Assembly (NCBI GenBank): GCA_002696035.1
Contig: NZQV01000020.1
Span: forward strand, 14,202-46,201
DNA: 32,000 nt
Direction: 5' to 3'
DNA from: Balneola sp.
GTDB taxonomy: Bacteria; Bacteroidota; Rhodothermia; Balneolales; Balneolaceae
Below, piece by piece: positions 11,896-26,362 of this stretch. The notes under the pieces are model-generated. The model searched no databases and was not told the origin of the DNA. It was given only the letters and a program-made list of their open reading frames with translations. The position numbers and the translations under genes were made by a program. Positions within the stretch are counted from its first letter, which is position 1; every line of letters starts with the position of its first letter.

Positions 11896-11947
11896 CTTTG
11901 GTAATGATGCAGTATAAAGTTGAGACAAGAACAATAGAAAGCAGCCT

Positions 11948-12703: not shown

Positions 12704-12728
12704 CCATTAATGCTTCAGCTTCAACAAA

Positions 12729-14879
12729 TTGGATCCCATTAAAATTGAAAAGCTATTCCACAAAATAATTGCTGATATAAAGCGTGCGGGATCTGAGCGG
12801 GTACAACTTTTCTTTATTCATGAATTTATTCTGGCACTCCAAAATAAATACAGGACCTACGACAGCTACCTGATCCAGCTTTTTGAGTTATTCCCTGCCT
12901 TAGAACATCCCCTCCTGTTTACCGGATTGAAACCGGAAGTCTTGAAAGTGGTTATACGGGATTGTGAGGAAGTGATCTCCGAGATCCCCGAGCTGAATGA
13001 AAGTAATGCAAAATTGCTGCGAAAAGTAGACCATTTAAAAGCAGGTTTAGACCAGATTCACGATTGGCTTGGGATCGACGATGAACCCCGTGAAGGGAGT
13101 CATATACCTTCTTTAAAAAGTTCTGAGGAACCAGGCCCGGAAAATGAAAGGAATACCGGAGAAGTTTTTATTCCGGTAGTTGAAGCTTCAGGGAAATTTG
13201 AAGCTAAAGGGCAGCTTCGGAAGCTGAAAGTAGAAGTTGTAGGCGAGTCGGGGTCTGGCCATTTTGAGCTGCGTCCGGTCTTTGGGGTGATAGGTGCACA
13301 AACAGGTGAGCTCGGGAAAAAACCTGCAAAAGCAGCCGGCATTCTGCTTAAAGAACACATCGAAACTCCAAAATTGTGGAAAGGAACTGCGCAGTTTGAA
13401 ATGACGCATACATGGCATGCAGGAAATTCGGCAAATGTAGCTTTATCAGGGTTATTCTATTGTGAGATGTTAAGAGCGGAAAAAAGGAGGGAATATTTTA
13501 GATTGAATCCCGGTATTGCCATCACAGGAGATATCAATGAAAAAGGGGAAGTGGTTGAGGTAGATGGTCCAACTTTAAAGCAAAAAGTTGCTGCAGCATT
13601 TTTTTCATGGGCGCAGGTTCTGGTAGTTCCCTATCAGCAATTTGAGCAAGCAGAAAAGTACATAACCCGGCTGAACAAGGCATATCCAAACCGGAATTTG
13701 GTGCTAAAAGGTATCGGGCATTTACGTGAGCTGTTCTTTGATCGCAGGCTGAGTCTTCATACAAAAACATCCCTGATAGAACATACAGCTCAAAGGTTAT
13801 GGAAAAAGAAATACAGTGCTGTTGCGGTGATAACTATTATCGTCTTGCTGGGCATTATTGGCCGATTGATCTACGGGCCGGTTGACAAGAATCCTGTTTC
13901 CGTGAATTTTGCGGGAGCGTATGCAGTACTGGAAAATAAAAGTGGGTTGAAGGTTGGGAGTATTCATTTTGGAGAAAGAGATATTGATCTGATCAATAAT
14001 ACGAACAGTTCGATTATTGATTTTTATGATATCTCCGGGGATGGTTTGAACGAAGTGATATATGCAAAGAAGCTCGGAAATTATAGCGAAGGTAGTGCAG
14101 TGATAGAGGCACGCTCAGTAACTACAGATACAACATTGTGGAGCACAGAATTCAATTTTGATATTGATTTTCCAAAACAACAAGGCATGGAGAATCTATA
14201 TTTTCACGTATCTGAACTTAAGATTACATCAGATAAAAAGGGTGTCCCAAAATTAATGGTTATGGGTGATGCGGGAGTCTCTTTTCCCGGAATATTAGCC
14301 AAATACGACCTGTTGACTGGAGTGCTGGAAAGCTATTATCTGCATGTTGGCGACCTTGGGGATATGCTTCTGGCCGATATTGATGAGGACGGAGTGGATG
14401 AAGTTCTGATGGTGGGCATCAACAATGCATACTGGATGGCAAGCCTGATCATCCTGGATCTGGATTCCATTTCGGGTCACTCTCCCACCAAAGGAGATTA
14501 CATCCCTGCTAATAGCGATGTATCTTCGGGACAAACATATGTGCTATTCCCAAAAACCATTGTAGGGCAAGCATTCGATCAAATTTACAAATATAACAGT
14601 GGCAGACGAGTAGCCCACCGAAAAGAAAAGCAGATCATTGCTGTGGAAATATTTGATACACCCCGGCAGAATTTTATGGGGGTGGTAAGTCAGGGCTACC
14701 TGATCTATGAATTCGATTACGATCTAAACATCAAAAGCATCATAAGCAGTGATGATTACGATGTAACCGCCCGAAATTTATATGAAGAAGGGCATATCCC
14801 TTTTATACCTGACTATGAATATTGGGAGGGATTTAGGGATTCGGTGTTGGTATGGGGTAGTGGTTTGGGAGATCTATAA
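12729..14879 (+). CDS. bitopic membrane protein: cytoplasmic Lon-type (S16-like) Ser-Lys peptidase domain, TM helix, periplasmic FG-GAP/VCBS-like domain
   Basis: 716 aa with a TTG start. Residues about 145-335 align by eye to the Lon proteolytic domain: WHAGNSANVALSGLF matches DGPSAG.A...AL.S, with Ser234 at nt 13428..13430. IAITGDINEKGEVVEVDGPTLKQKVAAAFFSWAQVLVVP matches VAMTGEITLRG.VLPIGGLKEKLLAA.R.GI..VIIP, with Lys284. There is a single TM helix, AVAVITIIVLLGIIGRLIY (nt 13815..13877). The C-terminal ~330 aa carry DxDxDGxxE-type motifs DISGDGLNEV and DIDEDGVDEV. Confidence 0.6.
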   Translation: MDPIKIEKLFHKIIADIKRAGSERVQLFFIHEFILALQNKYRTYDSYLIQLFELFPALEHPLLFTGLKPEVLKVVIRDCEEVISEIPELNESNAKLLRKVDHLKAGLDQIHDWLGIDDEPREGSHIPSLKSSEEPGPENERNTGEVFIPVVEASGKFEAKGQLRKLKVEVVGESGSGHFELRPVFGVIGAQTGELGKKPAKAAGILLKEHIETPKLWKGTAQFEMTHTWHAGNSANVALSGLFYCEMLRAEKRREYFRLNPGIAITGDINEKGEVVEVDGPTLKQKVAAAFFSWAQVLVVPYQQFEQAEKYITRLNKAYPNRNLVLKGIGHLRELFFDRRLSLHTKTSLIEHTAQRLWKKKYSAVAVITIIVLLGIIGRLIYGPVDKNPVSVNFAGAYAVLENKSGLKVGSIHFGERDIDLINNTNSSIIDFYDISGDGLNEVIYAKKLGNYSEGSAVIEARSVTTDTTLWSTEFNFDIDFPKQQGMENLYFHVSELKITSDKKGVPKLMVMGDAGVSFPGILAKYDLLTGVLESYYLHVGDLGDMLLADIDEDGVDEVLMVGINNAYWMASLIILDLDSISGHSPTKGDYIPANSDVSSGQTYVLFPKTIVGQAFDQIYKYNSGRRVAHRKEKQIIAVEIFDTPRQNFMGVVSQGYLIYEFDYDLNIKSIISSDDYDVTARNLYEEGHIPFIPDYEYWEGFRDSVLVWGSGLGDL

Positions 14880-15077: not shown

Positions 15078-18000
15078 ATGTTGGGCAAAAAAAGATACAA
15101 ACTTAGTAAGGTGTGGGCTTTTCTATTCGTTTTGATGGGAATGGGATTAACTGCCAACGCACAAATGGTAACGGGAACTGATACGCTTTTCTATGACACC
15201 GAAACCTCATCATGGGACTTCTATGATTTTTCACATGCAACAGCTTTTGGGATTGATGATACAGCTTCTTTCGATGCAGATATTCGGGGTAGTAGTAATG
15301 AAGGGGGGAGTTTTGGTAGAGAGTATTCTCCAGAAGTATTGGAGAATCGTCTGTATTTGATTGGGGATGGAGGTCTGGATACAGCAGTTACAGTTCCTGA
15401 ATGGGTTGATGGTTCGCCGTGGGTAAGTGACGCCTGGCAAGCAAATGGAGGCCAACCAATAGTGACAGATCGTCTGTGGGCGATATATACTCAGGAAGGG
15501 ACTTATGCAATTATAGAATTCACTGAAATAGTAAGTGGAAACTATTATGTATTCGATTATAAATACCAAAGCGATGGTTCCAGAAATTTTGAAGAAGCTG
15601 ATTTTGGTGGAGGATCTTCAGGAATCGTAGAAGGATCGGCAACTAGTTCGAGCGGTAGTGGTTTTGATTTTTCAAGAGAAGAGACAGCAGACAATCATGA
15701 TGCCGGAGATTACCTGGTAGATTTTGTTTTTGTAAATAATGAAGGCGTAAATTTTGGGAACGAAGGAAGTGGATCTATTGATAGTACTGGTCGCCGGTTC
15801 CTGTTGTTGGGTGAGGGTAGTATTGATGAAGTTCAGGAAGTTCCTGCTAGAACGGATGCTGAACCGTGGGTTACGGTGTCATACGATGCTACCGGTTATC
15901 AACCCATTTCAGTAGGTCAGCTTTGGGCCGTATATACCCGCGAGGGAAATTATGGGGTCATAGAAATTACCGATCTGCCGGGTGGTGACTTTGGCAGTTC
16001 ATTTAATTTTAACTATAAATACCTGGATGATGGCAGCCGTGATTTTGGGGGAAGTGGAGATACCGGAGATCCGATACCAGATGTGATCACAATTGCTGAA
16101 GCACGGAATCTGGCCCCGGGCGAATTAGTAACCATTAAGGGTATTGTAACAAGTGCGAATAGAATTTATTCCAACATTCAGCAAGATACCGCGGGAATCT
16201 TAACCTACACCCCTTCGGGAGAAAATGTATCCGGTGATTATTTTAATGCCATTGAAAACGGAGATGTTGCTATAGGTGATTCTATAAGGATTACAGCCTA
16301 CCGAGAAGATTTTCAGGGCCAAAAAGAGCTGTTGGATTTTGTGGATTTCAATGTTTTTTCCAGAGGGAATCCTTTACCACAAGCCGAACTGCTTACCCTT
16401 GATGAATTCTTTGCTTCGGGAGATAATTATAACCCGGAGCGGATAAGAGTGAACGATCTTAGCATTCCTGGATCAAGTATTTTTGAAAGCGGGAGAACTT
16501 ATATAGCTGTTGAGAATAGTACTGGTAACAATATACGGTTCATTGTGCCACAAGGGAATAACCTGGCTGGAACGGAGATACCCGCCGTTTTTGAATACGA
16601 GGGTATTGCCGGCTATTCTACGGCTTATAGTTATGGTGCCAATCAGCAGCTTTTGGGACTGGAAGAATTTAATATAATTGAAGTTGAACCCCCCATTCCT
16701 TCAGATTCTACGGCTGCTCCTAATGGCAGTTTTGAGTATTCAAGCTTGGGTGAATTTATGGGAGAATCACCCGGCTGGTTTGCCGATTTTGATGCCGATA
16801 CAGGTGCTATGGGGACATTTGAGATCATTGATACCGAATTTCAGGATGGAGAGAAAGCACTCGAAGTTTCTATAAATAGTGTCCATCCGGAAGCGGATCA
16901 CTGGAGCATTCAAGTAGTGAACGAAAAGTTTAATTTGGTTCCCGGGAATCAGTATGAACTTTCGTTCTGGGCAAAATCAGCACAAAGTGGCGCAGTAATA
17001 GGTGGATTTATTCAAAATCAGGACTACGGTAATTTTGGAACTATCGCACAGGAGGAGTTATCTACATCCTGGACAGAGTATAAGACCACATTTGTAGCAA
17101 ATTCTGGAGATACAATAAGTACCGATGATAGTATTGGCCGTGTGGCTATATATTTGAACTACGAGGCAAATGAAGGCAAGCAGATCTACATTGATAATCT
17201 TCAGGTTAATGAAATTGAAAGCGGACCCATTGAAGGAGATCTTTATGATGGTGCTCTCACTGGAGCTGAAGGGCAAAGTTATTTTCTGCCTCTAAATATT
17301 GAATTGCTCAATGGCGTTCCTTTAGATGCTTTTGAGATCAAGGTAAATTTTGATCTTTCTTTCACAGAAGTTTCACTGGGAGAACAAGAAGGCACCCATG
17401 CTGATTATTTTGATATTGAAACAAATTCACCTGAACCCGGAGTCTTGCTTATTTCTGGAGCTACGGCAAATGGTATAACAGAATCTGGTCCGTTGATGTA
17501 TTTAGAGATAACAGCCCTGAGCTCAGGCACGGGGTCGATCGAAATTACAGACGTTTTCTTTAACGAAACGAGCATCAATGATGCATCTATCTCATTGGAT
17601 TTTGAAACTGGTTTTGTCTGTGGTGATGTAACCGGAGATTTAAATGTATCTGCCACAGATGCCTCATATGTTTTACGGCATACTGTGAAATTGTCTCCGC
17701 AATATCCATTGACCGGGCAGGATTCTACGGCCGCAGATGTAACCGGCAACGGCTGGATCTCAGCCTATGATGCGTCCCAGATTCTAAAGTATAACGTGGG
17801 CATGCCGGCCATTATGAATTGTGCATCTGCACAAGCTAAAATGGCTCCGCTGGCAGTTCAGGTTGACTGGGATTATTGGTCTGAAGGTGATGAGGGCTCT
17901 GAATATTCCGTTCCACTTAGTTTGAACGACCTTGAGGGAGCACTTACTGCGGCTGAAATACAGATCCCAATGACGGAGGGTTTGAAATTCAAGGGGATAA

Positions 18001-18479
18001 ATAACGCTCCGGAAAACTGGCAAGTAACTACGAATGTGAGAGATGGTGTTGCATATGTATCAATGTTTGGAGCAGAAACCGTGGAGTCGGAACTGTTAGG
18101 AGAACTGGCCTTTGAACTCATCGATAAAACTGAAGTTCAAAATATTGAGGGCAGAATTGTGGTGAATGAAAACCCACCGGTTCAACTTGAGAAACTGACA
18201 CTTAATGATCTCCCAAGGGAATTTAAGGTTTCTCAGAATTACCCAAATCCATTCAACCCAACTACCCAGATCAAATACAGTGTTCCGGAGGATGCAAAAG
18301 TTCAGCTTTTTGTATACAATCTGTTAGGGCAGAAAGTGGCAGAATTGGTGAATGAACAGAAATCGCCGGGCCGATATACCGTAAGCTGGGATGCAGGTAA
18401 CAACTCGAGTGGGGTGTACATGTACCGTCTGGTAGCCGGAGAAAATGTGTTCACCAAGAAAATGATGCTAATCAAATAA
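15078..18479 (+). CDS. T9SS-sorted multidomain surface protein (duplicated N-terminal module, OB-fold-like, CBM4/9-like, cohesin-like, dockerin, cohesin-like, T9SS CTD)
   Basis: 1133 aa with a signal peptide [29 protein letters not shown].
- CBM4_9-like segment at 16719..17213 (PNGSFE...WSIQV...[12 protein letters not shown]...IYIDNLQV).
- Cohesin-like segments at 17271..17573 and 17898..18176.
- Two-repeat dockerin at 17619..17801 ([20 protein letters not shown] ... [23 protein letters not shown]).
- T9SS C-terminal domain at 18216..18476 ([19 protein letters not shown]...GVYMYRL..G....TKKMMLIK). Confidence 0.85.
15213..16049 (+). repeat. intragenic duplication: two copies of an uncharacterised module of about 127 aa
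   Basis: Copy A covers aa about 46-172 (...[61 protein letters not shown]...[13 protein letters not shown]). Copy B covers aa about 195-324 (...[62 protein letters not shown]...[13 protein letters not shown]). The similarity is at protein level; the DNA has diverged. Confidence 0.75.
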
Positions 18480-18486
18480 CAGGACG

Positions 18487-20973
18487 ATGAAAAAGATTGC
18501 AGGACTACTATTTATAATTTTTCTTACATCGTATGCTAACCTGGCAATGGGGCAACTCCAAGTCTCGTTGCCAGACCTGGAGATACAGAATGCAGATACC
18601 ACCCTTGAAGTACCAATTACAATTCAAGGACTGGCTCCGGACTCGATCAGCGGCTTTACTTTTGAAGTCACTTTTGATCCCGGGGTAGCCATTGTAACGG
18701 GCCATTCAAAGTCCGGTACCTCATCAGCAGGATTTTCTGTGGTGGGAAATAGTAATTCAGAAACTACGTACAGAGTATCTGGAGCAGGCTCCGATCCAAT
18801 CTATGATAATGGTACTATTCTAAAAATAGAAGTACAGGTAATGGGATCAGGAACTTCTGTACTTGAATTCTCAGAGATCGAGATAAATGAAGGAGAACCG
18901 GCTTTTACATCAAATAATGGAAGCATTACGGTTGGAGGCCTTCCAGGTATTCCTGGTCTGACTTCTCCGGGAAATAACCGCACGGGAATTGCTATCAATA
19001 CAACATTGCATTGGGAATCTGTGCAAGCTGCCAGTAGTTATGAGCTGCAGGTATCGGAGTCTTCAGGTTTTCAAAGTTTGATAGCAGATGAAAGCCTCAC
19101 TTCTGAATCTTTTGCGCTGCAGGGCTTGGATTATACAACAATATATTTTTGGCGGGTTCGGGCCATAAATAGCTCGGGTAGTAGTGACTGGTCGGAGGTA
19201 TTTTCGTTTACCACAAAAGAGGTTCCGCTGCCAGAAGCTCCATCGCTTTCATCTCCTTTGAATGAATCAGAGCAAATTTCTGTCGATGTCATTTTTGATT
19301 GGGAGGAATCCAACTTAGCGGAGCATTATACACTTCAGCTTTCAACTACAACTACCTTTGGATCCGGTTCTCTTACAATTAATGAATCGGTTTCAGAAAC
19401 GACGTATTCAGCAGAAGATCTGAACCATAACACAACCTATTACTGGCGTGTGAAGGCCGAAAATTCAGACGGAGAAAGTGATTGGTCTGATACCTTTTCA
19501 TTCTCCACCATCGTTGAAGCTCCCGGCCTTGCAACACTGATGTTTCCCGCTAATGAAGCCGAAAGCGCAGATACACTTGTCACGCTGGTTTGGGGTGAAG
19601 CTGACAGAGCTGAATCTTATCAGGTGCAGGTGGCCTCAAATAATGATTTCAGTCCTGCTGTTTATGATGGAGAAGTTGCAGATACCGTTTTAAGTATTGG
19701 CGGGTTGAACTTTTCAACGACCTATTACTGGCGGGTAAAATCGCTGAATGCAGGAGGAGAAAGTAATTGGAGCTCAAGAGCTGAATTTACAACCGGAGCT
19801 GCACAAGCGGGTTTGCCAACATTGGCAAGTCCTCAAAACAACGCGACCGGAACCGACACGTCTCTCACTTTTACCTGGAATGCAGGAGAAAATGCGGTTA
19901 GCTACAAAATTCAGGTAGCGAGTGATGTAGAATTCAATTCTGTTGTAAGGGAAGAAAGCAATGTTTCAGGTACTTCCATCACTTTTGATGACTTTGAACA
20001 CGAAGCCCGCTATTATTGGAGGGTGAGAACCAATGCTGAGAATACAACTTCGGGTTGGTCCAGTACCTTCAATTTTACAACACTTGAGAAAGAAAACAAG
20101 CCGCCAGTAGTGGAAAACCCGATGGGAAGTATTTCACTATCAGAAGATTTTGGGAATTCTACCGTGGTTGATCTGAAAACGGTTTTTTCGGATGATCAGA
20201 CATCGCAATTATCATTTGAACTCATCGATTTCACAGAGCAAATATTTACCGCTGTCATTAATGAAAATTCAGAATTGATTTTAACATCGATTGAAGATCA
20301 ATTTGGTAATGCGAAGGTTGTGGTAAGTGCCAGTGATGAAGATGGGGCTACCATTCAAGATACCCTCGATGTAACTATTGATCCTGTAAACGATTTACCC
20401 GAGTTTGTTCAAATTCCCGATACCGTTCGGTTTACCAGCGGGGAAGAATATACCCTTCAATATGGAAACATTGCAGCAGATGTAGAAGATGAGTTCTCAG
20501 ACCTTACCTTCAGTTTTAACATAGAGCCGGAAGAATTAACCTTTGAAGTATCCGTTTCAGCTACTGAGATCACCATTTCTTCATCTGATTTTGTGGGGGA
20601 AGGGGTACTTACTTTCAGTGTGGAAGATTCTGATGGCGGAAGAATTGAGGGAAGTATTGTGTTGGTGGTTGAGACGGGCACTTCATCGGAGTTACAAGAA
20701 ACAGTTCCGGAAGAATTTGTCTTATCTCAGAACTTTCCCAATCCATTCAACCCGACCACCCAAATTCAATATCAGCTGCCCGAAGCTGCTTCGGTCCAGT
20801 TCAGAGTGTTTGATATGACGGGGCGTATCGTTCATGATGCAGGAGTTGAGCGGAGATCAGCCGGTTCGTATACGCTTTCATTCGATGCCGAATCTCTTTC
20901 AAGTGGTATTTATCTCTACCAAATTAAGGCCGGATCATTTAGTGAGACAAAAATCATGACATTGATAAAATAA
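18487..20973 (+). CDS. T9SS-sorted surface protein (N-terminal cohesin-like domain, 4 FN3-like repeats, cadherin-like modules, T9SS CTD)
   Basis: 828 aa, starting 7 nt after the previous gene.
- Signal peptide MKKIAGLLFIIFLTSYANLAMG.
- Cohesin-like domain at aa 24-150 (TLEVPITIQGLAPDSISGFTFEVTFDPGV...GTILKIEVQVMGSGTSVLEFS).
- Four repeats of about 95 aa, each ending YYWRV.A....S.WS..F.F.T.
- Two modules ending in VNDLP-type motifs.
- CTD at 20713..20970 ([19 protein letters not shown]...GIYLYQI.AG.F.ETKIMTLIK). Confidence 0.85.
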   Translation: MKKIAGLLFIIFLTSYANLAMGQLQVSLPDLEIQNADTTLEVPITIQGLAPDSISGFTFEVTFDPGVAIVTGHSKSGTSSAGFSVVGNSNSETTYRVSGAGSDPIYDNGTILKIEVQVMGSGTSVLEFSEIEINEGEPAFTSNNGSITVGGLPGIPGLTSPGNNRTGIAINTTLHWESVQAASSYELQVSESSGFQSLIADESLTSESFALQGLDYTTIYFWRVRAINSSGSSDWSEVFSFTTKEVPLPEAPSLSSPLNESEQISVDVIFDWEESNLAEHYTLQLSTTTTFGSGSLTINESVSETTYSAEDLNHNTTYYWRVKAENSDGESDWSDTFSFSTIVEAPGLATLMFPANEAESADTLVTLVWGEADRAESYQVQVASNNDFSPAVYDGEVADTVLSIGGLNFSTTYYWRVKSLNAGGESNWSSRAEFTTGAAQAGLPTLASPQNNATGTDTSLTFTWNAGENAVSYKIQVASDVEFNSVVREESNVSGTSITFDDFEHEARYYWRVRTNAENTTSGWSSTFNFTTLEKENKPPVVENPMGSISLSEDFGNSTVVDLKTVFSDDQTSQLSFELIDFTEQIFTAVINENSELILTSIEDQFGNAKVVVSASDEDGATIQDTLDVTIDPVNDLPEFVQIPDTVRFTSGEEYTLQYGNIAADVEDEFSDLTFSFNIEPEELTFEVSVSATEITISSSDFVGEGVLTFSVEDSDGGRIEGSIVLVVETGTSSELQETVPEEFVLSQNFPNPFNPTTQIQYQLPEAASVQFRVFDMTGRIVHDAGVERRSAGSYTLSFDAESLSSGIYLYQIKAGSFSETKIMTLIK
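18943..20082 (+). repeat. four tandem FN3-like repeats of about 95 aa (protein-level)
   Basis: The repeat ends are marked by YFWRVRAINSSGSSDWSEVFSFTT, YYWRVKAENSDGESDWSDTFSFST, YYWRVKSLNAGGESNWSSRAEFTT and YYWRVRTNAENTTSGWSSTFNFTT. Each is preceded by a SP.N......V.F.W......Y.LQV motif. Confidence 0.8.
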
Positions 20974-21151: not shown

Positions 21152-21240
21152 AATGTGGATAATTAAATTTATCAGAATTAAAAAATCAATAATAATATTG
21201 TTTTTATCTCTAATTATTTTGATTTGTAAAATGTGGATAA
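21152..21240 (+). promoter_or_regulatory. pair of identical 11-mers AATGTGGATAA, each containing a perfect DnaA-box 9-mer (complement TTATCCACA), in an AT-rich promoter region
   Basis: TGTGGATAA occurs at 21154..21162 and 21232..21240, in the same orientation and 78 bp apart. The second copy ends 71 nt upstream of the ATG at 21312. The 11-nt identity extends to AATGTGGATAA at 21152..21162 and 21230..21240. Confidence 0.5.
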
Positions 21241-21311
21241 CTCTTTTATAATAGGCCTTGATTGATATCATTAATTACAGTAGGCTTTATTAACCATTTA
21301 AAGTATTAGTT

Positions 21312-23123
21312 ATGAATCGGGTACATGTCGGGGTTTTGGTAATAGGGATTCTGCTATCATATTCGGTATCGGGGTTAGCACAGACAACGAGCAATCGGAT
21401 GGCCGCTCCAGATGAAGCTGAGGAAGCTTCAAAGTATGAACAGTACTACGAAGTGATATTAGATCGCTCTTTACGTGAATATTATGATAGGGGAACTTAT
21501 ATCGTTGATGTGAAAGCCATTATCGAACGAGTTATGGTAGCAAAGGGATACGATATGGTAGAATCCCCACCAAATATAGAAATAGAAAACCTGCCTGGAT
21601 TACCTGTAATTCCTCCTAACTTAAGGAATAATCAAAATCAGGATAGTTTAAAGGTTTCTGGTTTTGATTCAAGATATAAGCTTACAGGGCTAAATGTAAA
21701 GGTGCTTGTTGATACATCCTACTCTGAGGAGGATATTGAGTTTATTGAAGAAGCCGCAGCCATGATATCTAATGCTGACTTATTGAGAGGAGATGTTATT
21801 GAAGTAACCGAAAGGGTTTTTCCAGGGATAGAGAGGACTCGTATTCAAACTCAGTCAGAATTGGATACTAATGGCGGCGATATTGAAGAGGCAGAACCTG
21901 AATTAAATAGGTTTTTGGGAATGAATTGGAATGATCCAAAGCAGCTTTTATATGTTATTTTTGGGTTAGGGCTTTTACTTTTTGGTCTTCTGTTATTCTT
22001 GTCTTTTCGAAAGCGCAGACCAACAGAGTTTGATGAAAATAGGACTCGTTATCAGCAACCCCCAGAGTTTAATCCACTATCTCAAGGCAATGAAAATAAT
22101 AATGGAAAAGAGTCAAATGAGGTGCGCGAAATCAATACTGACAAGCAGCAACAGTTTGAAAAGGACAAAATGTACATTACTAATACATGTGTAAGTGAGC
22201 CGCAGATGGTAGCAAATCTTGTTTCAGGTTGGATAGAGGATGATAAAGAGGAAGGTGTAGTACGGGCGGTCCGACAGGTTTATAGCGTTGATCATAAGTT
22301 GTTGAATATTTTAGAAGATCATCTTACTGATGAACAATATAATTCTATACAGTTTGGCCTTTCAAATATTGACTCTATTCCTATTGAAGAAAAAGTAGAG
22401 GAAGTTGCTCAGTTTAAGAAGAGTATACAGGGCATAAAAAAAGAACGTCAAAAGAAAGATTCTGAATCAAACCTGTTCGGTTTCTTAAAACAGCTTACCA
22501 ATCAGCAATTGGTGCATTTGGTTAAAGGGGAGTCAGATGAGATGACTGCAATACTGCTAGCCCAGGTTGCAGGAGAGCGTTCAGGCTATGTGTTGCAAAA
22601 AATGAAGGAACAGAAACGCATTTCGGTTGTCTTAAAAATGGGCAAGATCAACAATATTCCCGTGTCTATATATAAAAGAGTGGCAGCTCATTTTTCTTCG
22701 AAGGCATTGTCAGTATCTGATATGAAATTTGTAGCTGCAGATGGGGTTGAATCTATACTCGCCACTATAGACAGTATGCCAGTGAGCAAGCAGGAGGAGT
22801 TCGTAAATTCAATCGCAGAGCAAGATATAGAATTGGCCAAAAAGATTAGAAAGTACTTTGTAGCTTTCGAAGATATTCCGGATATGGAAGATGACTTATT
22901 GCAAAAAAGCATTGAAAATATTGGCACAGAAGACCTTGTCCCCGCACTTTTTGGAGCTGATAAAGATGTTCAGAAGAAAATACTCCAAGTGCGTCCTAAG
23001 AGAGAGCAACAGCTGATTATTTCAGAATTAAATAATACGAATGAGTTAAGTAAATCTGAAGTAGAGCAAGCCAGAAAAGAATTACTAAAAGTAATCCGAA
23101 ATCATCTAAAAAAAGTAGGCTGA
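21312..23123 (+). CDS. bitopic membrane protein: FliF C-terminal-like periplasmic segment, TM helix, full-length FliG-like cytoplasmic domain (rotor-like fusion)
   Basis: 603 aa.
- N-terminal signal/TM segment VHVGVLVIGILLSYSVSGLAQ.
- Periplasmic LNVKVLVDTSYSEEDIEFIEEAAAMISNADLLRGDVIEVTERVF (nt about 21684..21827). This parallels the Salmonella FliF segment RLSVAVVVN...QIEDLTREAMGF..KRGDTLNVVNSPF, which precedes FliF TM2.
- TM helix LLYVIFGLGLLLFGLLLFLSF (21942..22007).
- Cytoplasmic aa about 296-603, FliG-like: LVHLVKGESDEMTAILLAQVAGERSGYVLQKMKEQKRISVVLKMGKI (M-domain pattern L..EHPQ.IALIL..L....AA.VL..L......V..RIA), AADGVESILATID....QEEFVNSIAEQDIELAKKIRKYFVAFEDI and LLQKSIENIGTEDLVPALFGADKDVQKKILQVRPKREQQLIISEL....ELSKSEVEQARKELLKVIR (C-domain pattern). 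Confidence 0.7.
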   Translation: MNRVHVGVLVIGILLSYSVSGLAQTTSNRMAAPDEAEEASKYEQYYEVILDRSLREYYDRGTYIVDVKAIIERVMVAKGYDMVESPPNIEIENLPGLPVIPPNLRNNQNQDSLKVSGFDSRYKLTGLNVKVLVDTSYSEEDIEFIEEAAAMISNADLLRGDVIEVTERVFPGIERTRIQTQSELDTNGGDIEEAEPELNRFLGMNWNDPKQLLYVIFGLGLLLFGLLLFLSFRKRRPTEFDENRTRYQQPPEFNPLSQGNENNNGKESNEVREINTDKQQQFEKDKMYITNTCVSEPQMVANLVSGWIEDDKEEGVVRAVRQVYSVDHKLLNILEDHLTDEQYNSIQFGLSNIDSIPIEEKVEEVAQFKKSIQGIKKERQKKDSESNLFGFLKQLTNQQLVHLVKGESDEMTAILLAQVAGERSGYVLQKMKEQKRISVVLKMGKINNIPVSIYKRVAAHFSSKALSVSDMKFVAADGVESILATIDSMPVSKQEEFVNSIAEQDIELAKKIRKYFVAFEDIPDMEDDLLQKSIENIGTEDLVPALFGADKDVQKKILQVRPKREQQLIISELNNTNELSKSEVEQARKELLKVIRNHLKKVG

Positions 23124-23127
23124 TAAG

Positions 23128-24219
23128 ATGAGAATATTTCTGCTAATAATGTTAATGGTGATTGGATTCCTTCAGCCGGGGCAAGCACAAAAAGAACTAA
23201 GGGAAGCTGAAAGGCGTGCTGAAACTTATATGATGAGTCGGATATCAGATCAATTAAGTACAGAGTTGAGTGATCTTCCAATAAATATCAGGCGAATGGC
23301 AATTTATAAGATAAATTATAACAGTAATAGATTTAGCAATGAGTCGATCGCTTTTATAAAAGGGGAAATCGAAACTGTATTTAAGGAGCATTCGCCAGTC
23401 TCAGTCATCTCACCACCTGAATTGGACCCGACTGATAAACTCAAAATTGTTGGGACAGATTCAACTTTGAAATTGATGAACATAAAAGGCCGCTCCTTAG
23501 CAGACATGTCACCTGAATTATTGGAAAGTGTTGCCAATAAATATTTATTAAGTGGACTTGCTGAGCTTACTTTGCAACGCCATTTTACAGAAGGGTTAGT
23601 AGTACAAATTCGAATTATGAGTCCTCAATCTCGTGAAATCGTATGGACGAGAAGTATAGTCGCATATCCCGTAGGAATTCAGGAAAAAGATAATACCGGA
23701 AAAAATGTGGTCATAAGGTTTGGAACCACGGTAATGAGTAATGAATTTTATACCAATCCTATCGCATCAAATATTGAGAACTCAGTCGAAACCTCCTCTT
23801 TAAATTACAATTTTAACTTTGGGTATCGTCAGTCATTCAATGAAGAGAATAGTGGATATCTTGGGTTTTATACAGGCTTTAATATTATTCGGTCAAATGC
23901 GAGTGAGGAGTTTGAGGCTGACTTTTGGGAATTGGGCATTTCTTTTGACCAGGCAATTTCTATGAAAAATGAACAGATTAATGACTATCGGGTAATGCTT
24001 GGTGTTGATTCCTCAGTTTGGTTGGCTATGGGAGATAACAAAGGTAACCTTATTACATTTAACCCCTCTTTAATATTGAATATGACCAAAAATATAGGCT
24101 TTGAATTATATGGTCAATACTTTTTAGGTGATCGGGCATTTACAAGTGATGATGTAAGTAGTAACACATACACATATGGACAATTTGGATATGGAGTGAA
24201 AGCCTATGTACAATTTTAA
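23128..24219 (+). CDS. secreted protein, probable outer-membrane beta-barrel with an N-terminal alpha/beta periplasmic module
   Basis: 363 aa, starting 4 nt after the previous stop. It has a signal peptide MRIFLLIMLMVIGFLQPGQAQ. The C-terminal half has alternating aromatic/polar beta-strand patterns (LNYNFNFGYRQSF, GYLGFYTGFNII, IGFELYGQYFLG) and the terminal ...YGVKAYVQF, where the C-terminal Phe is typical of BAM substrates. The N-terminal part (RRMAIYKINYN...GLAELTLQRHFTEGLVVQIRIMSPQSREIVW) loosely recalls FlgO/CsgG/LpoB-type modules, but this is a weak inference. Confidence 0.55.
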   Translation: MRIFLLIMLMVIGFLQPGQAQKELREAERRAETYMMSRISDQLSTELSDLPINIRRMAIYKINYNSNRFSNESIAFIKGEIETVFKEHSPVSVISPPELDPTDKLKIVGTDSTLKLMNIKGRSLADMSPELLESVANKYLLSGLAELTLQRHFTEGLVVQIRIMSPQSREIVWTRSIVAYPVGIQEKDNTGKNVVIRFGTTVMSNEFYTNPIASNIENSVETSSLNYNFNFGYRQSFNEENSGYLGFYTGFNIIRSNASEEFEADFWELGISFDQAISMKNEQINDYRVMLGVDSSVWLAMGDNKGNLITFNPSLILNMTKNIGFELYGQYFLGDRAFTSDDVSSNTYTYGQFGYGVKAYVQF

Positions 24220-24832
24220 AGAATTATCAACCTGTTTAATATTGATTTTTTTGGCTCAATCTTGTGCACCTACTGAGAGAGGTATCTCTGAGGGAGGAGG
24301 ACAATATTATACACTGGATGAGCTGCGTCAATTAGATCAGATTACTGAAGAAAAAAATGATAAAGTTATTCTGAACTACAAAAATGAAAGTTCGGGAATA
24401 CAAATTCGTCTTGATCCAGAAAAGGATGAATTTTTTCTAGACCTGAAAGGAATGCAACCGGCAGAAAAAGATACTGTTATAATTGCGGACTCGACACTCA
24501 TCGAAAACCGTGAAAGAGATATTCAAACAGTACTTTCTAAATTCAGAAATGCTCAGGATCTATTTTACCTGGAAGAATATACAGAAGCCTTGAGGTTGCT
24601 AAATGAAACACTCCAAATTGCTGAAACAGCAGATGCATACGCTCTCAAAGGAACCATTCATTTTATGATGGGTAATCAAAATGCAACCCGTGAAAATTGG
24701 AATCGTGCAGTCCAGATCAATCCTGACTTGCCTATACCAAGTATTCCGGAGCTCGAAACTATTATTGAAGATATTAAGCAGGAAGAAGGTATAGAGCCTT
24801 CAGCTGAAGATCAGGAACAAGAAGAACAGTAA
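24206..24832 (+). CDS. probable lipoprotein with a TPR repeat and an acidic C-terminal tail
   Basis: 208 aa, overlapping the previous gene by 14 nt. The signal sequence has a lipobox-like LIFLAQSC. A TPR-like segment reads YLEEYTEALRLLNETLQIAETADAYALKGTIHFMMGNQNATRENWNRAVQINPD. The C-terminus is EEGIEPSAEDQEQEEQ. Confidence 0.6.
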   Translation: MYNFKELSTCLILIFLAQSCAPTERGISEGGGQYYTLDELRQLDQITEEKNDKVILNYKNESSGIQIRLDPEKDEFFLDLKGMQPAEKDTVIIADSTLIENRERDIQTVLSKFRNAQDLFYLEEYTEALRLLNETLQIAETADAYALKGTIHFMMGNQNATRENWNRAVQINPDLPIPSIPELETIIEDIKQEEGIEPSAEDQEQEEQ

Positions 24833-24846
24833 GAGGAGATCAATTA

Positions 24847-25677
24847 ATGAGGTTATCGTTAACGAACATTTTTGGGGTATTATTTAGTATAGGGATTTTG
24901 GTTTTTGGGATATTAGAGGTGACTGGAGCTACATCTTATATAGAATCTATTCCTATACTTTCCGATTATCAATTTTTAAATATTCCAAGTCTATTTATTG
25001 TGATGGGAGGGGTTTTGAATGCTGTCTTTATAACGTATCAACCTCGTTATGTAGGTAAGGCATTTTTGAGTTTATTCTATTTTTTTAGTCAGGCTAAAAC
25101 CAATTCTAAAGCTTTAGAGAATGATCTGGATAATATTCTGGAATGGAATGAGCAGATCCGTGATAACCGGGTTCAGGCATTATCTAAATTTGAAGAAGAG
25201 CATCAGGACGAGATCGAGGGGTTTTTATTTTCTTTGATAAGTACGAATTATAACAATGAAGAAATTCGTGATTTTGGCTCTAATAATATCGAAGAACAAT
25301 ATTTTCGTAAAATGGTTGTGGTTGATGTGCTTAGGGCAATGGGCGGTGCAGCACCCTCATTCGGGATGTTTGGTACATTATTCGGACTAGTGGTTATGTT
25401 GGGCGAACTTGATAACCCATCAGCTATGGGGCCTGGACTTGCCGCTGCCCTGATCACCACGCTGTATGGAATTGCCTTGGCTAGATTCATTTTCTATCCG
25501 ATGGCAGAAAAACTTAAAAACATAGCGCAGATGAATAAATTTAGGGAGTACTTTATTTTAGAAGGTATACTCCTTATCAATGAGAAAAAGTCATCATTCT
25601 ATATTAAAGATAAAATGAAGACATATTTACAAAGAGATTTTAAAAGAGAAGAAGAGTTAGAGCTGCAAGGGGTATAA
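24847..25677 (+). CDS. MotA/PomA-type (4-TM) proton/ion channel stator subunit
   Basis: 276 aa. Two N-terminal TM segments are followed by a cytoplasmic loop of about 100 aa. Next comes GGAAPSFGMFGTLFGLVVMLGELDNPSAMGPGLAAALITTLYGIALARFIFYPMAEKL, the MotA_ExbB core, with both conserved prolines in the positions of E. coli MotA P173 and P222. Confidence 0.85.
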   Translation: MRLSLTNIFGVLFSIGILVFGILEVTGATSYIESIPILSDYQFLNIPSLFIVMGGVLNAVFITYQPRYVGKAFLSLFYFFSQAKTNSKALENDLDNILEWNEQIRDNRVQALSKFEEEHQDEIEGFLFSLISTNYNNEEIRDFGSNNIEEQYFRKMVVVDVLRAMGGAAPSFGMFGTLFGLVVMLGELDNPSAMGPGLAAALITTLYGIALARFIFYPMAEKLKNIAQMNKFREYFILEGILLINEKKSSFYIKDKMKTYLQRDFKREEELELQGV

Positions 25678-25678
25678 C

Positions 25679-26362
25679 GTGAAGCGCAATGGAGGTTTAG
25701 GCCGGAACTCAAATAATGATCGCAATGTCCATGAAGAAGATCTGGAGTGGCTTCTTACTTACAGCGATATGATAACTCTGTTGTTGGCTTTTTTTGCAGT
25801 TCTAATCGCAGTTTCCCACGTAGATATAAATCTTTGGGAACAGATGAAACAGGGACTTCGCTCTGAAGTAAGTAAACAGGAAAATGTTCGGACTCCCCTG
25901 GCTGAGGTTAAGAAAGATCTGGATGAGAGATTGGCTTCAGAACGTGAAGCTAACCTTGTGGATATAACACTCGGCCGTGAAGGAATTAAACTATTCTTTA
26001 ATAGCAGTTCATTCTACAATTCTGGGGAAGCTGAGTTATTACCTACTGGGCAAAATATCATTGATATTGTGACCGAGGCGATGAGTGACTTGGGATACTA
26101 TCAATTTAGAATTGATGTGGAAGGCCATACTGATAATGTTCCTATTAGCACTGCTCGGTACCCGTCTAACTGGGAGCTTTCAGTGGCACGGGCTTCGGAA
26201 ATCGTGAAGTACTTTATTGAGGAGGGAATTGAAGGAGACCGTTTGAAAGCTTCTGGGTATGCAGACACTCAACCAGTTGTGCCGCACGTGGATGAAGATG
26301 GTAATGATATCATCGAGAACCGAGCACTAAACCGGCGTATAGTAATTAGGATTTATTACTGA
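25679..26362 (+). CDS. MotB/OmpA-family stator anchor subunit
   Basis: 227 aa, with a GTG start 1 nt after the motA-like stop. The N-terminal WLLTYSDMITLLLAFFAVL carries the conserved channel Asp (MotB D32 equivalent). The C-terminal OmpA-like peptidoglycan-binding domain reads GHTDNVPI........SNWELSVARASEIVKYF...GI...RL.ASGYADTQPV......NRALNRRIVIRI. Confidence 0.85.
   Translation: MKRNGGLGRNSNNDRNVHEEDLEWLLTYSDMITLLLAFFAVLIAVSHVDINLWEQMKQGLRSEVSKQENVRTPLAEVKKDLDERLASEREANLVDITLGREGIKLFFNSSSFYNSGEAELLPTGQNIIDIVTEAMSDLGYYQFRIDVEGHTDNVPISTARYPSNWELSVARASEIVKYFIEEGIEGDRLKASGYADTQPVVPHVDEDGNDIIENRALNRRIVIRIYY

What the first reader, a model, noticed from the sequence alone, without database searches (positions are those of the whole stretch)
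21312..23123. Natural FliF(C-terminus)-TM-FliG fusion with a truncated periplasmic part and no EHPQR (FliM-binding) signature
**Seen in sequence.**
- The periplasmic part is only about 190 aa, whereas canonical FliF has roughly 400 or more periplasmic residues with three ring-building motifs.
- It still retains the block ...LNVKVLVD...IEFIEEAAAMI....LRGDVIEVTERVF directly before the TM helix, as in FliF before TM2.
- After a low-complexity linker of about 60 aa (RPTEFDENRTRYQQPPEFNPLSQGNENNNGKESNE), a FliG-like array follows.
- Where canonical FliG_M has L..EHPQ.IALIL, this protein has LVKGESDEMTAILL, so the EHPQ part of the FliM-binding EHPQR motif is replaced.
- In the C-domain torque-helix region (ILQVRPKREQQLIISELNN), the Arg aligning with the MS.RA Arg is present. 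The acidic pair is reduced to a single Glu.

**Inference.** This looks like a rotor element that keeps a stator-facing domain but has lost switch-complex coupling. That is consistent with the absence of fliM/fliN nearby. Covalent FliF-FliG fusions are known to me only as engineered Salmonella constructs, not as natural genes.
Basis: partly seen in the sequence, partly recalled or inferred. Interest (0 to 1): 0.8.

Follow-up and report, generated by a model that had tools for sequence, protein, structure and literature searches.

The report
Flagellum-free FliF–FliG rotor with MotAB stator
This gene fuses the ring-forming end of the flagellar membrane-ring protein FliF to a complete copy of the rotor protein FliG, and it always sits in a small operon with flagellar-type MotA/MotB stator genes in bacteria whose closest cultured relative has no flagella, so it looks like the core of an undescribed rotary machine built from flagellar motor parts.

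Summary
ORF 21312-23123 (603 aa) is a conserved natural FliF–FliG fusion.

- **Layout:** signal peptide, one periplasmic FliF RBM3/β-collar-like domain, one TM helix, a ~45-aa disordered linker, then a complete FliG (N, M and C domains).
- **Motifs:** the FliM-binding EHPQR motif is lost across the family. The torque-helix Arg (E. coli R281) is basic in 96 of 96 diverse relatives.
it is the first gene of a tight 5-gene operon: fusion, orphan probable outer-membrane protein, TPR lipoprotein, flagellar-type MotA, MotB. All 35 sufficiently long loci from Balneolales and Fibrobacterota keep this order.
- **Paralogue:** the same Balneolaceae chromosomes carry a second, paralogous fusion–MotAB cassette.
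- **Host:** the closest cultured carrier, Gracilimonas tropica, is reported non-motile and lacking flagellar assembly genes.
- **Correction:** natural FliF–FliG fusions are not unknown; Chlamydiaceae have one.

The best reading is a switchless rotor ring turned by MotAB, independent of any flagellum. Its output at the cell envelope is unknown. I found no paper describing it. Rotation, ring formation and function are inferred, not shown.

The parts
21224..21252 (+). Best sigma-70-like promoter match, about 60 bp upstream of the ATG. It is a weak lead only.
   Evidence: TTGTAA-17-TATAAT, 10 of 12 matches. The number of such sites in the region is not above the shuffled expectation.
21312..23123 (+). 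FliF(RBM3/collar)-TM-FliG fusion gene, 603 aa: the proposed rotor subunit.
21312..21380 (+). aa 1-23: N-terminal hydrophobic helix, probably a cleaved Sec signal peptide ending ...GLA|Q.
   Evidence: Hydrophobicity scan. Q24 is invariant in 27 relatives. Cleavage itself is inferred.
21381..21935 (+). aa 24-208: periplasmic domain with FliF RBM3-like alpha-beta-beta-alpha-beta topology. It has two ~20-residue strands (a mini beta-collar), a near-invariant LPGLP loop, and RGD...FP just before the membrane.
   Evidence: - AF2 models.
- The top 18 Foldseek PDB hits are all FliF MS-ring RBM3/collar, E 1e-6 to 4e-5.
- PF08345 is hit weakly in 23 of 27 relatives, and above cut-off in family members P0259, P0230 and P0152.
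- The region aligns to E. coli FliF 367-431.
- Motif conservation across 96 sequences.
21936..22007 (+). aa 209-232: transmembrane helix, followed by RKRR on the cytoplasmic side.
22008..22136 (+). aa 233-275: disordered, unconserved, low-complexity linker.
   Evidence: pLDDT below 50 for residues 237-270. No conservation.
22137..22496 (+). aa 276-395: FliG N-domain equivalent plus the long N-M helix.
   Evidence: - The full-length model aligns to full-length FliG over 308-326 columns: 3hjl, 8wiw, 8umx, 9n49.
- phmmer alignment to Salmonella FliG starts at query residue 335 = FliG residue 53.
- The Pfam FliG_N hit is below cut-off and falls on the M region.
22497..22775 (+). aa 396-488: FliG middle domain. 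ESDE replaces EHPQ, Met443 replaces the motif Arg, and Asp477-Gly478 stands where FliG has Gly-Gly.
   Evidence: FliG_M 4.5e-8, 33.6 bits against a cut-off of 25. Alignments. Family statistics.
22776..23123 (+). aa 489-603 plus stop: FliG C-terminal (stator-facing) domain, with the torque helix VRPKREQQLIISE.
   Evidence: - FliG_C 6.7e-20.
- 1qc7 TM-score 0.82, rmsd 1.8 A; 8ucs_H (FliG_C bound to MotAB) TM-score 0.80.
- R564 is R/K/H in 96 of 96 relatives.
23128..24219 (+). 363-aa orphan protein specific to the cassette. It has a signal peptide, an N-terminal periplasmic domain and a beta-rich C-terminal half ending in a near-invariant Phe. It is a probable outer-membrane beta-barrel protein (inferred).
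   Evidence: - No hits in Pfam, NCBIfam or the PDB sequence search.
- Orthologue in Fibrobacterota at 25% identity, E 7e-17.
- Alignment A4.
- Homologues occur only in cassette-bearing lineages, and all are annotated hypothetical.
24206..24832 (+). 208-aa TPR lipoprotein. Its start overlaps the previous gene by 14 bp.
   Evidence: TPR_1/TPR_2 hits. Cys20 after the hydrophobic stretch is invariant in all orthologues.
24847..25677 (+). MotA/PomA-type stator A subunit, 276 aa.
   Evidence: - MotA_ExbB 3.5e-20.
- NCBIfam MotP/PomA/MotA 2e-37 to 3e-28, against TolQ 4e-4 and ExbB 5e-3.
- PDB PomA 3.7e-24, with no ExbB or TolQ chain at E <= 0.01.
25679..26362 (+). MotB-type stator B subunit, 227 aa. 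It has the TM Asp30, a plug helix and an OmpA-like peptidoglycan-binding domain.
   Evidence: - MotB_plug 1.1e-13 and OmpA 7.8e-15.
- MotD/MotS/MotB 4e-46 to 4e-29.
- The Asp, the plug and NWELS..RA are conserved across orthologues.

Best explanation
**What the gene encodes.** The subunit of a minimal, switchless rotor. After export, and probable signal-peptide cleavage, the periplasmic FliF-RBM3/collar-like domain would oligomerise into a ring on the outer face of the inner membrane. This is inferred by analogy with the MS ring.

**How the parts connect.** A single TM helix and a flexible ~45-residue tether link each ring subunit covalently to a complete FliG. This replaces the non-covalent FliF C-terminus/FliG_N joint of flagella. 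It would place a FliG ring under the membrane.

**How it would be driven.**
- The co-operonic MotA5B2-type stator has an ion-conducting Asp, a plug and a peptidoglycan anchor.
- It would engage the conserved torque helix of FliG_C (R564) and turn the ring using the ion-motive force.
- FliM/FliN and the EHPQR docking motif are absent, so there would be no C-ring lower half and no CheY-type switching.

**Output.** The near-invariant LPGLP loop at the tip of the collar is the most likely output or contact site. The two other operon products, a probable outer-membrane protein and a TPR lipoprotein, are either the driven load or a periplasmic scaffold or bushing.

**Status of each step.**
- Shown: domain homologies, motif states, operon structure, synteny and breadth.
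- Taken from papers: absence of flagella in the closest cultured carrier.
- Inferred: ring formation, rotation, direct FliG_C-MotA contact, and the cellular function.
For: **Identity of the fusion.**
- FliG_M and FliG_C score above Pfam cut-offs, and PDB FliG chains match at 6e-15.
- hhalign against E. coli FliG gives probability 98%, E 2.6e-13.
- The AF2 full-length model has pLDDT 85.6. It aligns to full-length FliG over about 310-326 columns, and to FliG_C at TM-score 0.82.
- The periplasmic domain's top 18 PDB fold hits are all FliF RBM3/collar.
- Family members retrieved by the N-terminal profile pass the PF08345 gathering score.
- The RGD...F block aligns to FliF 367-431.

**A functional module rather than an accident.**
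- The five-gene order is intact in 35 of 35 sufficiently long loci from Balneolales and Fibrobacterota, with unrelated flanks. It is also intact in L042.
- The gaps between successive genes in the window are 4, -14 (an overlap), 14 and 1 bp.
- About 100 clusters at 50% identity keep the whole architecture.
- A paralogous fusion in the same chromosomes again sits next to its own MotA/MotB.

**Stator type.** MotA is far closer to PomA/MotP/MotA than to TolQ/ExbB. MotB has the plug, the Asp and the peptidoglycan-binding motifs.

**Interface residue.** R564 (E. coli R281) is basic in 96 of 96 sequences, whereas the EHPQR positions are not kept.

**Non-flagellar host.**
- G. tropica carries a 72%-identical orthologue with the whole cassette (L003).
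- It is listed as non-motile (PMC5167729).
- It is listed as lacking flagellar-assembly genes (PMC9909488).
- No other flagellar gene is in the window.
Against: - No experiment or oligomer model shows a ring or rotation.
- Fold matches to FliF have modest TM-scores (0.46-0.59 normalised to the target) and large rmsd.
- The window protein's own PF08345 score is 15 bits, below the cut-off of 23.8.
- A narrow N-terminal profile finds no FliF among PDB sequences.
- The classical rotor-stator charge pairs are only partly kept. D288/D289 are S/E and are variable across the family; K264 and R297 are lost. The MotA Arg aligned to PomA R88 is Gln in Fibrobacterota.
- I could not scan whole genomes, so the absence of canonical flagellar genes in carriers rests on two papers about G. 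tropica. Some Balneola species are flagellated.
- In flagella the MS ring's RBM1/2 and the export gate are part of the assembly. Whether RBM3 alone assembles here is untested.
Confidence: 0.6

Rival explanations
1. It is an unusual but genuine flagellar component. On this reading it is the FliF/FliG of the organism's own flagellum, or of a second flagellar system, and MotAB are ordinary flagellar stators.
For: - Every recognisable domain is flagellar.
- Some Balneolaceae (Balneola vulgaris) are flagellated.
- Sources annotate relatives as 'flagellar motor switch protein FliG'.
Against: - There is no RBM1/RBM2 (no PF01514 hit), the parts that surround the export gate in flagella.
- There is no EHPQR motif for FliM.
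- No fliE/H/I/M/N/P/Q/R, flhA/B, rod, hook or filament gene lies in the window or in any of about 40 loci with 10-kb flanks.
- The cassette is present in non-motile G. tropica, which is reported to lack flagellar assembly genes.
- The score against the fliG equivalog model is 78 bits against a cut-off of 227.
Confidence: 0.1
2. The ring is a non-rotating membrane platform. The FliG-like domain merely docks or gates MotAB units, so that ion flow is coupled to an envelope task in the manner of Tol-Pal or ExbBD-TonB. Possible tasks are outer-membrane tethering, peptidoglycan remodelling or signalling. The FliF-like ring would not spin.
For: - The operon includes a TPR lipoprotein and a probable outer-membrane protein. 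This is reminiscent of CpoB and Pal-type partners of 5:2 motors.
- The paralogous cassette's MotB carries a SPOR domain, which is septal-peptidoglycan binding.
- The classical charge pairs are only partly conserved.
Against: - MotA is of the flagellar torque-generating type, not the TolQ/ExbB type.
- The most conserved cytoplasmic stretch is exactly the torque helix.
- No TolA/TonB-like transducer is encoded in the cassette.
- The only known role of an RBM3 ring joined to a FliG ring is as a rotor (established knowledge of the flagellar motor).
Confidence: 0.2
3. It is a decaying remnant of an ancestral flagellar regulon with no present function.
For: A published suggestion that Balneolaceae have progressively lost flagellar genes (PMC9909488). 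[quoted passage not shown]
Against: - The ORF is intact, with full-length conservation across phylum-level distances (26-30% identity in Fibrobacterota) and near-invariant motifs.
- Five-gene synteny is perfect in 35 of 35 loci.
- System-specific partner genes have co-evolved with it.
- A duplicated, diverged second cassette exists.
Confidence: 0.04
4. The cytoplasmic domain is an MgtE_N-type or generic helical repeat rather than FliG, or the MotAB pair belongs to a Zorya-type phage-defence system.
For: MgtE_N gives a weak hit, E 0.0078. MotB matches ZorB models at about 5e-19.
Against: - FliG_C is 17 orders of magnitude better than MgtE_N and is above its cut-off.
- The model aligns end-to-end with full-length FliG.
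- MotA has no ZorA hit, and no other cassette protein hits any PADLOC model.
- MotB matches flagellar MotD/MotS at 4e-46 to 3e-36, far better than ZorB.
Confidence: 0.01

Closest known systems
Flagellar rotor: FliF MS ring plus FliG (E. coli/Salmonella, T. maritima, A. aeolicus)
   Same: - The periplasmic domain has an RBM3/beta-collar-type fold and a shared RGD...F block immediately before the TM helix.
- A complete FliG N-M-C fold is present.
- The torque-helix Arg (R281 equivalent) is conserved.
- A flagellar-type MotAB pair is encoded alongside.
   Different: - One polypeptide instead of two.
- RBM1 and RBM2 are missing, giving about 185 rather than about 400 periplasmic residues.
- Probably one TM helix plus a cleaved signal peptide, instead of two TM helices.
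- EHPQR is lost and Gly-Gly is Asp-Gly.
- There are no FliM/FliN, export apparatus, rod, hook or filament genes.
- It occurs in a lineage whose closest cultured member is non-motile.
Chlamydiaceae FliF-FliG natural fusion (CT719 family; Bergeron 2016, PMC4768692)
   Same: It is a natural covalent FliF-FliG fusion with a shortened periplasmic region, in bacteria without flagella.
   Different: According to the paper, the chlamydial protein is about 330 aa. It keeps an RBM2-like module plus one RBM-like module and carries only a FliG_M-like cytoplasmic domain. It is discussed as a possible injectisome (SctQ) partner. The present protein is 603 aa, keeps RBM3/collar, carries whole FliG including the stator-facing C domain, and is operonic with MotAB. 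A direct sequence relationship between the two was not tested here.
Engineered Salmonella and Vibrio FliF-FliG fusions (e.g. PDB 8z4d/8z4g)
   Same: They have the same covalent order, FliF then FliG. The engineered fusions assemble rings (PMC11481574; listed).
   Different: Those constructs contain full-length FliF with all three RBMs and operate, or assemble, within a normal flagellar context.
Other ion-driven 5:2 motor systems: GldLM/PorLM (T9SS and gliding), TolQR-TolA, ExbBD-TonB, AglRQS, ZorAB
   Same: An inner-membrane ion-driven motor is encoded with envelope partners, in bacteria (the FCB group) known for non-flagellar surface machines.
   Different: Those systems transmit force through a periplasm-spanning B-subunit or a TolA/TonB-type transducer and have no FliG/FliF-type rotor. 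Here the A subunit is of the flagellar PomA/MotA type and its predicted cytoplasmic partner is a FliG ring.
SpoIIIAG and other RBM ring proteins
   Same: RBM fold with an inserted beta-hairpin collar that builds large rings.
   Different: There is no sporulation context. The top fold hits are FliF, not SpoIIIAG, and the domain is fused to FliG.

Membership tests
FliG (flagellar rotor/switch protein) | FliG_C domain (PF01706) above the gathering score | tested here: met
   71.8 bits against a cut-off of 23.3, aa 500-597. 1qc7 TM-score 0.82.
FliG (flagellar rotor/switch protein) | FliG_M domain (PF14841) above the gathering score | tested here: met
   33.6 bits against a cut-off of 25, aa 398-470.
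FliG (flagellar rotor/switch protein) | FliG_N domain present | tested here: inconclusive
   The Pfam FliG_N hit is 23.4 bits, below the cut-off of 25, and lies on the M region. However, the model aligns to full-length FliG over 308-326 columns.
FliG (flagellar rotor/switch protein) | Passes the equivalog model TIGR00207 | tested here: not met
   78.5 bits against a cut-off of 226.7.
FliG (flagellar rotor/switch protein) | EHPQR motif (FliM binding) | tested here: not met
   ESDE replaces EHPQ and Met443 replaces the Arg. Across the family only the Glu is common (74 of 96), and position 443 is always hydrophobic.
FliG (flagellar rotor/switch protein) | Charged torque-helix residues (E. coli K264, R281, D288, D289, R297) | tested here: inconclusive
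   The R281 equivalent is kept (R564; basic in 96 of 96). D288/D289 are S/E, K264 is F and R297 is S.
FliG (flagellar rotor/switch protein) | Separate soluble protein encoded with fliF/fliH/fliM/fliN | tested here: not met
   It is fused to a membrane protein, and no such genes occur in the window or in about 40 related loci.
FliF (MS-ring protein) | RBM1-RBM2 (PF01514 YscJ_FliF) | tested here: not met
   No hit, even at E <= 10. Only about 185 periplasmic residues are present.
FliF (MS-ring protein) | RBM3 with beta-collar (PF08345 region and fold) | tested here: met
   - Fold: the top 18 PDB hits are all FliF RBM3/collar.
- Sequence: sub-threshold in the window protein (15 bits), but consistent in 23 of 27 relatives and above the cut-off in relatives P0259, P0230 and P0152.
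- It aligns to FliF 367-431.
FliF (MS-ring protein) | Two transmembrane helices flanking the periplasmic region | tested here: inconclusive
   Two hydrophobic segments are present. The first ends in a conserved A|Q signal-peptidase-like site, and cleavage was not testable.
FliF (MS-ring protein) | Assembles into a ring of about 33-34 subunits | not testable with these tools
   No multimer prediction or experiment was available.
Flagellar-type MotAB/PomAB stator | A subunit closer to MotA/PomA than to TolQ/ExbB, with a large TM2-TM3 cytoplasmic domain | tested here: met
   MotP/PomA/MotA 2e-37 to 3e-28, against TolQ 4e-4. PomA 3.7e-24 in the PDB. The scores are below the equivalog cut-offs.
Flagellar-type MotAB/PomAB stator | B subunit with TM Asp, plug helix and OmpA-like peptidoglycan-binding domain | tested here: met
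   MotB_plug 1.1e-13 and OmpA 7.8e-15. Asp30 and NWELS..RA are conserved.
Flagellar-type MotAB/PomAB stator | Conserved rotor-facing charges (PomA R88, E96; MotA R90, E98) | tested here: inconclusive
   R105 aligns to PomA R88 in Balneolales but is Gln in Fibrobacterota. E96 aligns to Ser, with Glu residues nearby.
Chlamydial FliF-FliG fusion | About 330 aa, RBM2-like plus RBM, FliG_M-like tail only | tested here: not met
   Architecture compared with the description in PMC4768692. The present protein is 603 aa with RBM3/collar and FliG N-M-C. Sequence relatedness was not tested.
Zorya (ZorAB) defence system | ZorA with a long tail, plus ZorC/D/E-type effectors | tested here: not met
   Only generic MotB-ZorB similarity was found. 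No ZorA or other PADLOC hit.

The most novel reading that the evidence does not exclude
Balneolales, Fibrobacterota and further unnamed metagenomic lineages possess a previously unrecognised, flagellum-independent rotary nanomachine.
- It would be a ring of FliF-RBM3-FliG fusion subunits spun by PomA/MotA-type stators.
- It exists in at least two paralogous versions per genome.
- It would be coupled through its periplasmic collar to dedicated outer-membrane and lipoprotein partners.
- It would be either an exapted, stripped-down flagellar motor or a surviving relative of the pre-flagellar rotor.
- It would be the simplest natural FliG/MotAB motor known.
Probability: 0.5. Interest if true: 0.9.

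Novelty: new variant of a known kind. Interest (0 to 1): 0.8.

Why it matters
- **Non-flagellar use of rotor and stator.** The flagellar rotor-stator pair (FliG with MotAB) has no established use outside the flagellum. A recent survey explicitly asked what rotor proteins do in the 11% of non-motile species that keep them (PMC12199754). This operon gives a concrete, conserved and genetically compact answer to test.
- **A minimal motor.** It would be one rotor gene, two stator genes and two envelope partners, with no switch, export apparatus or filament. That would suit structural and biophysical study of torque generation.
- **Origin of the flagellar motor.** It bears on whether this is a reduced descendant or a relative of a precursor of the flagellar motor.
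- **Missed envelope machines.** It may reveal a new energised envelope function in FCB-group bacteria, including abundant marine Balneolaceae and fibre-degrading Fibrobacterota.
- **Annotation.** These genes should not be counted as evidence of flagella. They are currently labelled 'flagellar motor switch protein FliG' or 'FliG C-terminal domain-containing protein'.

Tried and rejected
- **Narrow profiles found nothing.** A narrow N-terminal profile found no FliF among PDB sequences. The 363-aa protein's profile also found nothing.
- **Taxon names.** Cluster look-ups for the unnamed clades gave almost no organism names.
- **The 363-aa protein.** A profile search for it found only cassette-linked hypothetical proteins with no Pfam domain.
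- **Literature.** Six full-text searches found no description of this cassette. A seventh, on Fibrobacter succinogenes, led to a membrane-proteome paper that mentions only ExbB/TolQ-type clusters. A paper on a Tol-Pal-like system in Bacteroidetes concerns PorE, not this operon.
- **Promoter and terminator scan.** It gave nothing above the shuffled expectation.
- **Upstream genes.** The three ORFs at 10888-14879 and the two T9SS cargo genes were considered as possible members of the system. They were rejected because they are adjacent to the cassette only in Gracilimonas, or only in this window.
- **Rejected readings.** MgtE_N-type repeat, Zorya, and an assembly artefact.


Full report
**1. The observation**

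ORF 21312..23123 (+) is real: 603 aa, ATG start, no frameshift. A hydrophobicity scan gives two hydrophobic segments, at aa ~4-24 and ~209-232, the second followed by RKRR. So about 185 residues face the periplasm and about 370 face the cytoplasm.

Pfam places FliG_M (aa 398-470, 4.5e-8) and FliG_C (aa 500-597, 6.7e-20) above their gathering scores. MgtE_N scores only 0.0078 and is below its cut-off. The fliG equivalog model is matched far below its cut-off, 78 against 227 bits. PDB FliG chains match at 6e-15 to 1e-9.

- EHPQ is ESDE.
- The motif Arg is Met443.
- Gly-Gly is Asp477-Gly478.
- The torque-helix Arg (E. coli R281) is R564.
- D288/D289 are S571/E572.
- K264 is Phe and R297 is Ser.

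The 233-275 linker is unconserved and predicted to be disordered.

**2. Not an artefact, and not rare**

Full-length homologues of 45-72% identity occur on many independent contigs and complete chromosomes of Balneolaceae, including the cultured Gracilimonas tropica.

I searched a profile of the N-terminal 240 residues against 1.84 billion representative proteins. It found 172 proteins at E <= 1e-3. Of the best 150, about 100 have the complete architecture: periplasmic domain, TM helix, then FliG N/M/C. They fall into several deep clades at 17-46% identity to the query.

**3. The periplasmic domain is FliF RBM3 with a short collar**

AlphaFold models give pLDDT 78.5 for aa 1-240 and 85.6 for the full length. 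The topology is:
- helix 33-55;
- a ~20-residue strand, 63-82;
- a loop carrying LPGLP;
- a ~20-residue strand, 113-133;
- helix 139-152;
- strand 162-167;
- then the TM helix.

This is the alpha-beta-beta-alpha-beta ring-building motif with a long inserted hairpin.

The evidence that it derives from FliF:
- Foldseek against the PDB returns FliF MS-ring RBM3/collar chains as all of the top 18 hits, at E 1e-6 to 4e-5. They appear again with the full-length model.
- 23 of 27 close relatives weakly hit Pfam YscJ_FliF_C at the same place, aa 120-168 against profile positions 93-145 of 147.
- More distant family members found by the profile pass that model's gathering score: P0259 at 38 bits, P0230 at 33 bits and P0152 at 27 bits.
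- Both hhalign and a broad family HMM align the block to E. coli FliF 367-431. The match 'KRGDSLNVVNSPF' against 'LRGDVIEVTERVF' lies just before TM2. The conditional E-value is 1e-5 for that single comparison.

RBM1 and RBM2 are absent (no PF01514 hit). TM-scores are modest (0.46-0.59), and a narrow profile does not reach FliF in PDB sequences. The homology therefore rests on the combination of fold, transitive sequence links and the shared motif.

The first hydrophobic segment ends in a conserved ...A|Q (Q24 is invariant). That looks like a signal-peptidase I site. Glutamine after the cleavage site is the rule in Bacteroidetes, though it is not established for the whole FCB group (PMC5837995). 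Cleavage is an inference.

**4. The cytoplasmic part is a whole FliG**

The full-length model aligns to full-length FliG from A. aeolicus (314 columns of 321) and to Salmonella C-ring FliG (308-326 columns). It aligns to T. maritima FliG_C at TM-score 0.82 and rmsd 1.8 A. It aligns to the FliG_C fragment solved in complex with MotAB (8ucs_H) at TM-score 0.80. Residues 276-603 therefore correspond to FliG N, M and C. The covalent tether replaces the FliF C-terminal peptide/FliG_N joint.

Across 96 diverse family members:
- R564 is R (86), K (9) or H (1).
- Position 443 is always hydrophobic.
- The H, P and Q positions of EHPQR are not kept.
- LPGLP, RGD and FP in the periplasmic domain are nearly invariant.

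The torque-helix stretch VRPKREQ.LI is also the best-conserved segment between the two paralogues.

**5. Context: a five-gene operon with a flagellar-type stator**

Downstream on the same strand, and separated from each other by 4, -14 (an overlap), 14 and 1 bp, lie:
- a 363-aa protein with no family hit;
- a 208-aa TPR protein;
- MotA (276 aa);
- MotB (227 aa, with MotB_plug and OmpA domains).

MotA matches MotP/PomA/MotA models at 2e-37 to 3e-28, against TolQ at 4e-4. It matches PomA structures at 3.7e-24, with no ExbB or TolQ chain at E <= 0.01. MotB keeps the TM Asp, the plug and the NWELS..RA peptidoglycan-binding motif.

The TPR protein has an invariant Cys after its hydrophobic leader, so it is a lipoprotein. 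The 363-aa protein has a signal peptide and a beta-rich C-terminal half ending in a near-invariant Phe, which suggests an outer-membrane barrel. Its homologues occur only with the cassette and are all annotated hypothetical.

A scan of GTDB species genomes returned 37 loci. The carriers are:
- Balneolaceae and Balneola;
- G. tropica DSM 19535;
- a Rhodothermia MAG;
- 'Bacteroidota' MAGs;
- four Fibrobacterota MAGs at 26-30% identity.

Every locus long enough (35 of 35) has all five genes in the same order, while the flanks differ. A more distant metagenomic clade has the same cassette (L042).

No cassette protein hits a defence-system model beyond generic MotB-ZorB similarity. No other flagellar or chemotaxis gene is in the window.

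**6. A second, paralogous cassette**

Another clade of the fusion family is 26% identical to the window protein over its full length. It is encoded in the same Balneolaceae chromosomes. CP051242.1, for example, has the window-type cassette at 0.81 Mb and the second type at 2.61 Mb.

There the fusion gene is preceded by about ten small unknown genes (including DUF4900 and DUF4402-like proteins) and a ~1000-aa protein. It is followed by a ~165-aa protein, its own MotA (46% identical to the window MotA), and a MotB with plug, OmpA and SPOR domains.

Keeping a private MotAB next to each fusion paralogue argues strongly for a rotor-stator partnership.

**7. Host biology**

- G. tropica carries a 72%-identical orthologue and the whole cassette (L003).
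- It is tabulated as having no motility (PMC5167729).
- It is tabulated as lacking flagellar-assembly genes in a KEGG comparison (PMC9909488).
- Balneola vulgaris is flagellated, so the family as a whole is mixed.
- I could not scan whole genomes myself.

**8. Mechanism proposed**

- The RBM3/collar domains would form a ring.
- Each subunit would hold a FliG under the membrane.
- Peptidoglycan-anchored MotA5B2 units would push on the FliG_C torque helix and turn the ring.
- Without FliM/FliN and EHPQR, no switch complex could dock.
- The LPGLP collar tip and the two envelope proteins would be the output or the scaffold.

The steps shown here are the homologies, motif states, operon structure, synteny and breadth. 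The non-flagellate phenotype of the closest cultured carrier comes from papers. The inferred steps are ring assembly, rotation, the FliG_C-MotA contact and the biological output.

The weak points are the partial loss of the classical charge pairs and the lack of any oligomer or experimental evidence.

**9. Comparison with what is known**

- **The canonical flagellar rotor.** This is the closest relative. The protein fails membership as a FliG orthologue (equivalog score, EHPQR, context) and as a FliF orthologue (no RBM1/2). It clearly descends from both.
- **Chlamydiaceae.** A natural FliF-FliG fusion is already described there. That protein is about 330 aa, with an RBM2-like part and only a FliG_M-like tail (PMC4768692). 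The fusion as such is therefore not unprecedented.
- **Engineered fusions.** Full-length FliF-FliG fusions assemble rings (PMC11481574). This makes ring assembly by a natural fusion plausible.

No paper I could search describes this cassette. Subscription-only literature is not covered. A 2025 survey notes unexplained rotor proteins in non-motile species (PMC12199754).

**10. Verdict**

The finding is real and more interesting than stated. It is a widespread, conserved, probably flagellum-independent FliF/FliG-MotAB module.

- Novelty: a new variant of a known kind, the flagellar-type rotor-stator motor.
- Confidence in the domain identity: about 0.9.
- Confidence that it works as a MotAB-driven rotor outside a flagellum: about 0.6.

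Noticed in passing
L043 (CP051242.1 2602157-2623947); also L040 and L041: The same Balneolaceae chromosomes carry a second, paralogous fusion-MotAB cassette. Its order is: about 10 small unknown genes (DUF4900, DUF4402-like), a ~1000-aa protein, a fusion paralogue (26% identical to the window protein), a ~165-aa protein, MotA (46% identical to the window MotA), and MotB with plug, OmpA and SPOR domains.
   Followed up: partly
Proteins P0177, P0178, P0247, P0230 and P0254: The FliF-RBM3-like periplasmic domain also occurs without FliG in other architectures. These are LysM-RBM3like-TM proteins of ~310-385 aa (one named from Bacteroidales), an RBM3-like domain plus TPR, and an RBM3-like domain plus cytochrome P460.
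   Followed up: partly
window 15078-20973 (+): Two large type IX secretion cargo proteins (Por_Secre_tail C-terminal domains). One carries a CBM_4_9 and a dockerin domain; the other carries a cohesin domain, four fn3-like repeats and Big_9. They lie between the cassette and the three ORFs that directly precede it in G. tropica.
   Followed up: no
window 10888-14879 (+): Three ORFs (335, 251 and 716 aa) have no Pfam hit. They are conserved immediately upstream of the cassette only in G. tropica (L003 5620-9667). By eye, the first looks sigma-factor-like. The third has a weak Lon/SepM-like stretch, a TM segment and a large C-terminal domain.
   Followed up: partly
window 21312-21398: A public (Tara) gene call for the identical protein (P0001, 574 aa) starts at Met30 and so drops the conserved signal peptide. 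Homologues support the ATG at 21312.
   Followed up: yes
window 1845-3476 (-): A 543-aa ORF lies antisense inside the isoleucyl-tRNA synthetase gene (1800-4955, +). It is most likely a non-coding shadow ORF.
   Followed up: no
window 24847-25677 and the Fibrobacterota orthologues (L032, L034, L036): The MotA Arg that aligns with PomA R88 (E. coli R90) is conserved in Balneolales but is Gln in Fibrobacterota. The FliG-side acidic pair is also variable. The rotor-stator interface may therefore use different contacts from the flagellar one.
   Followed up: partly
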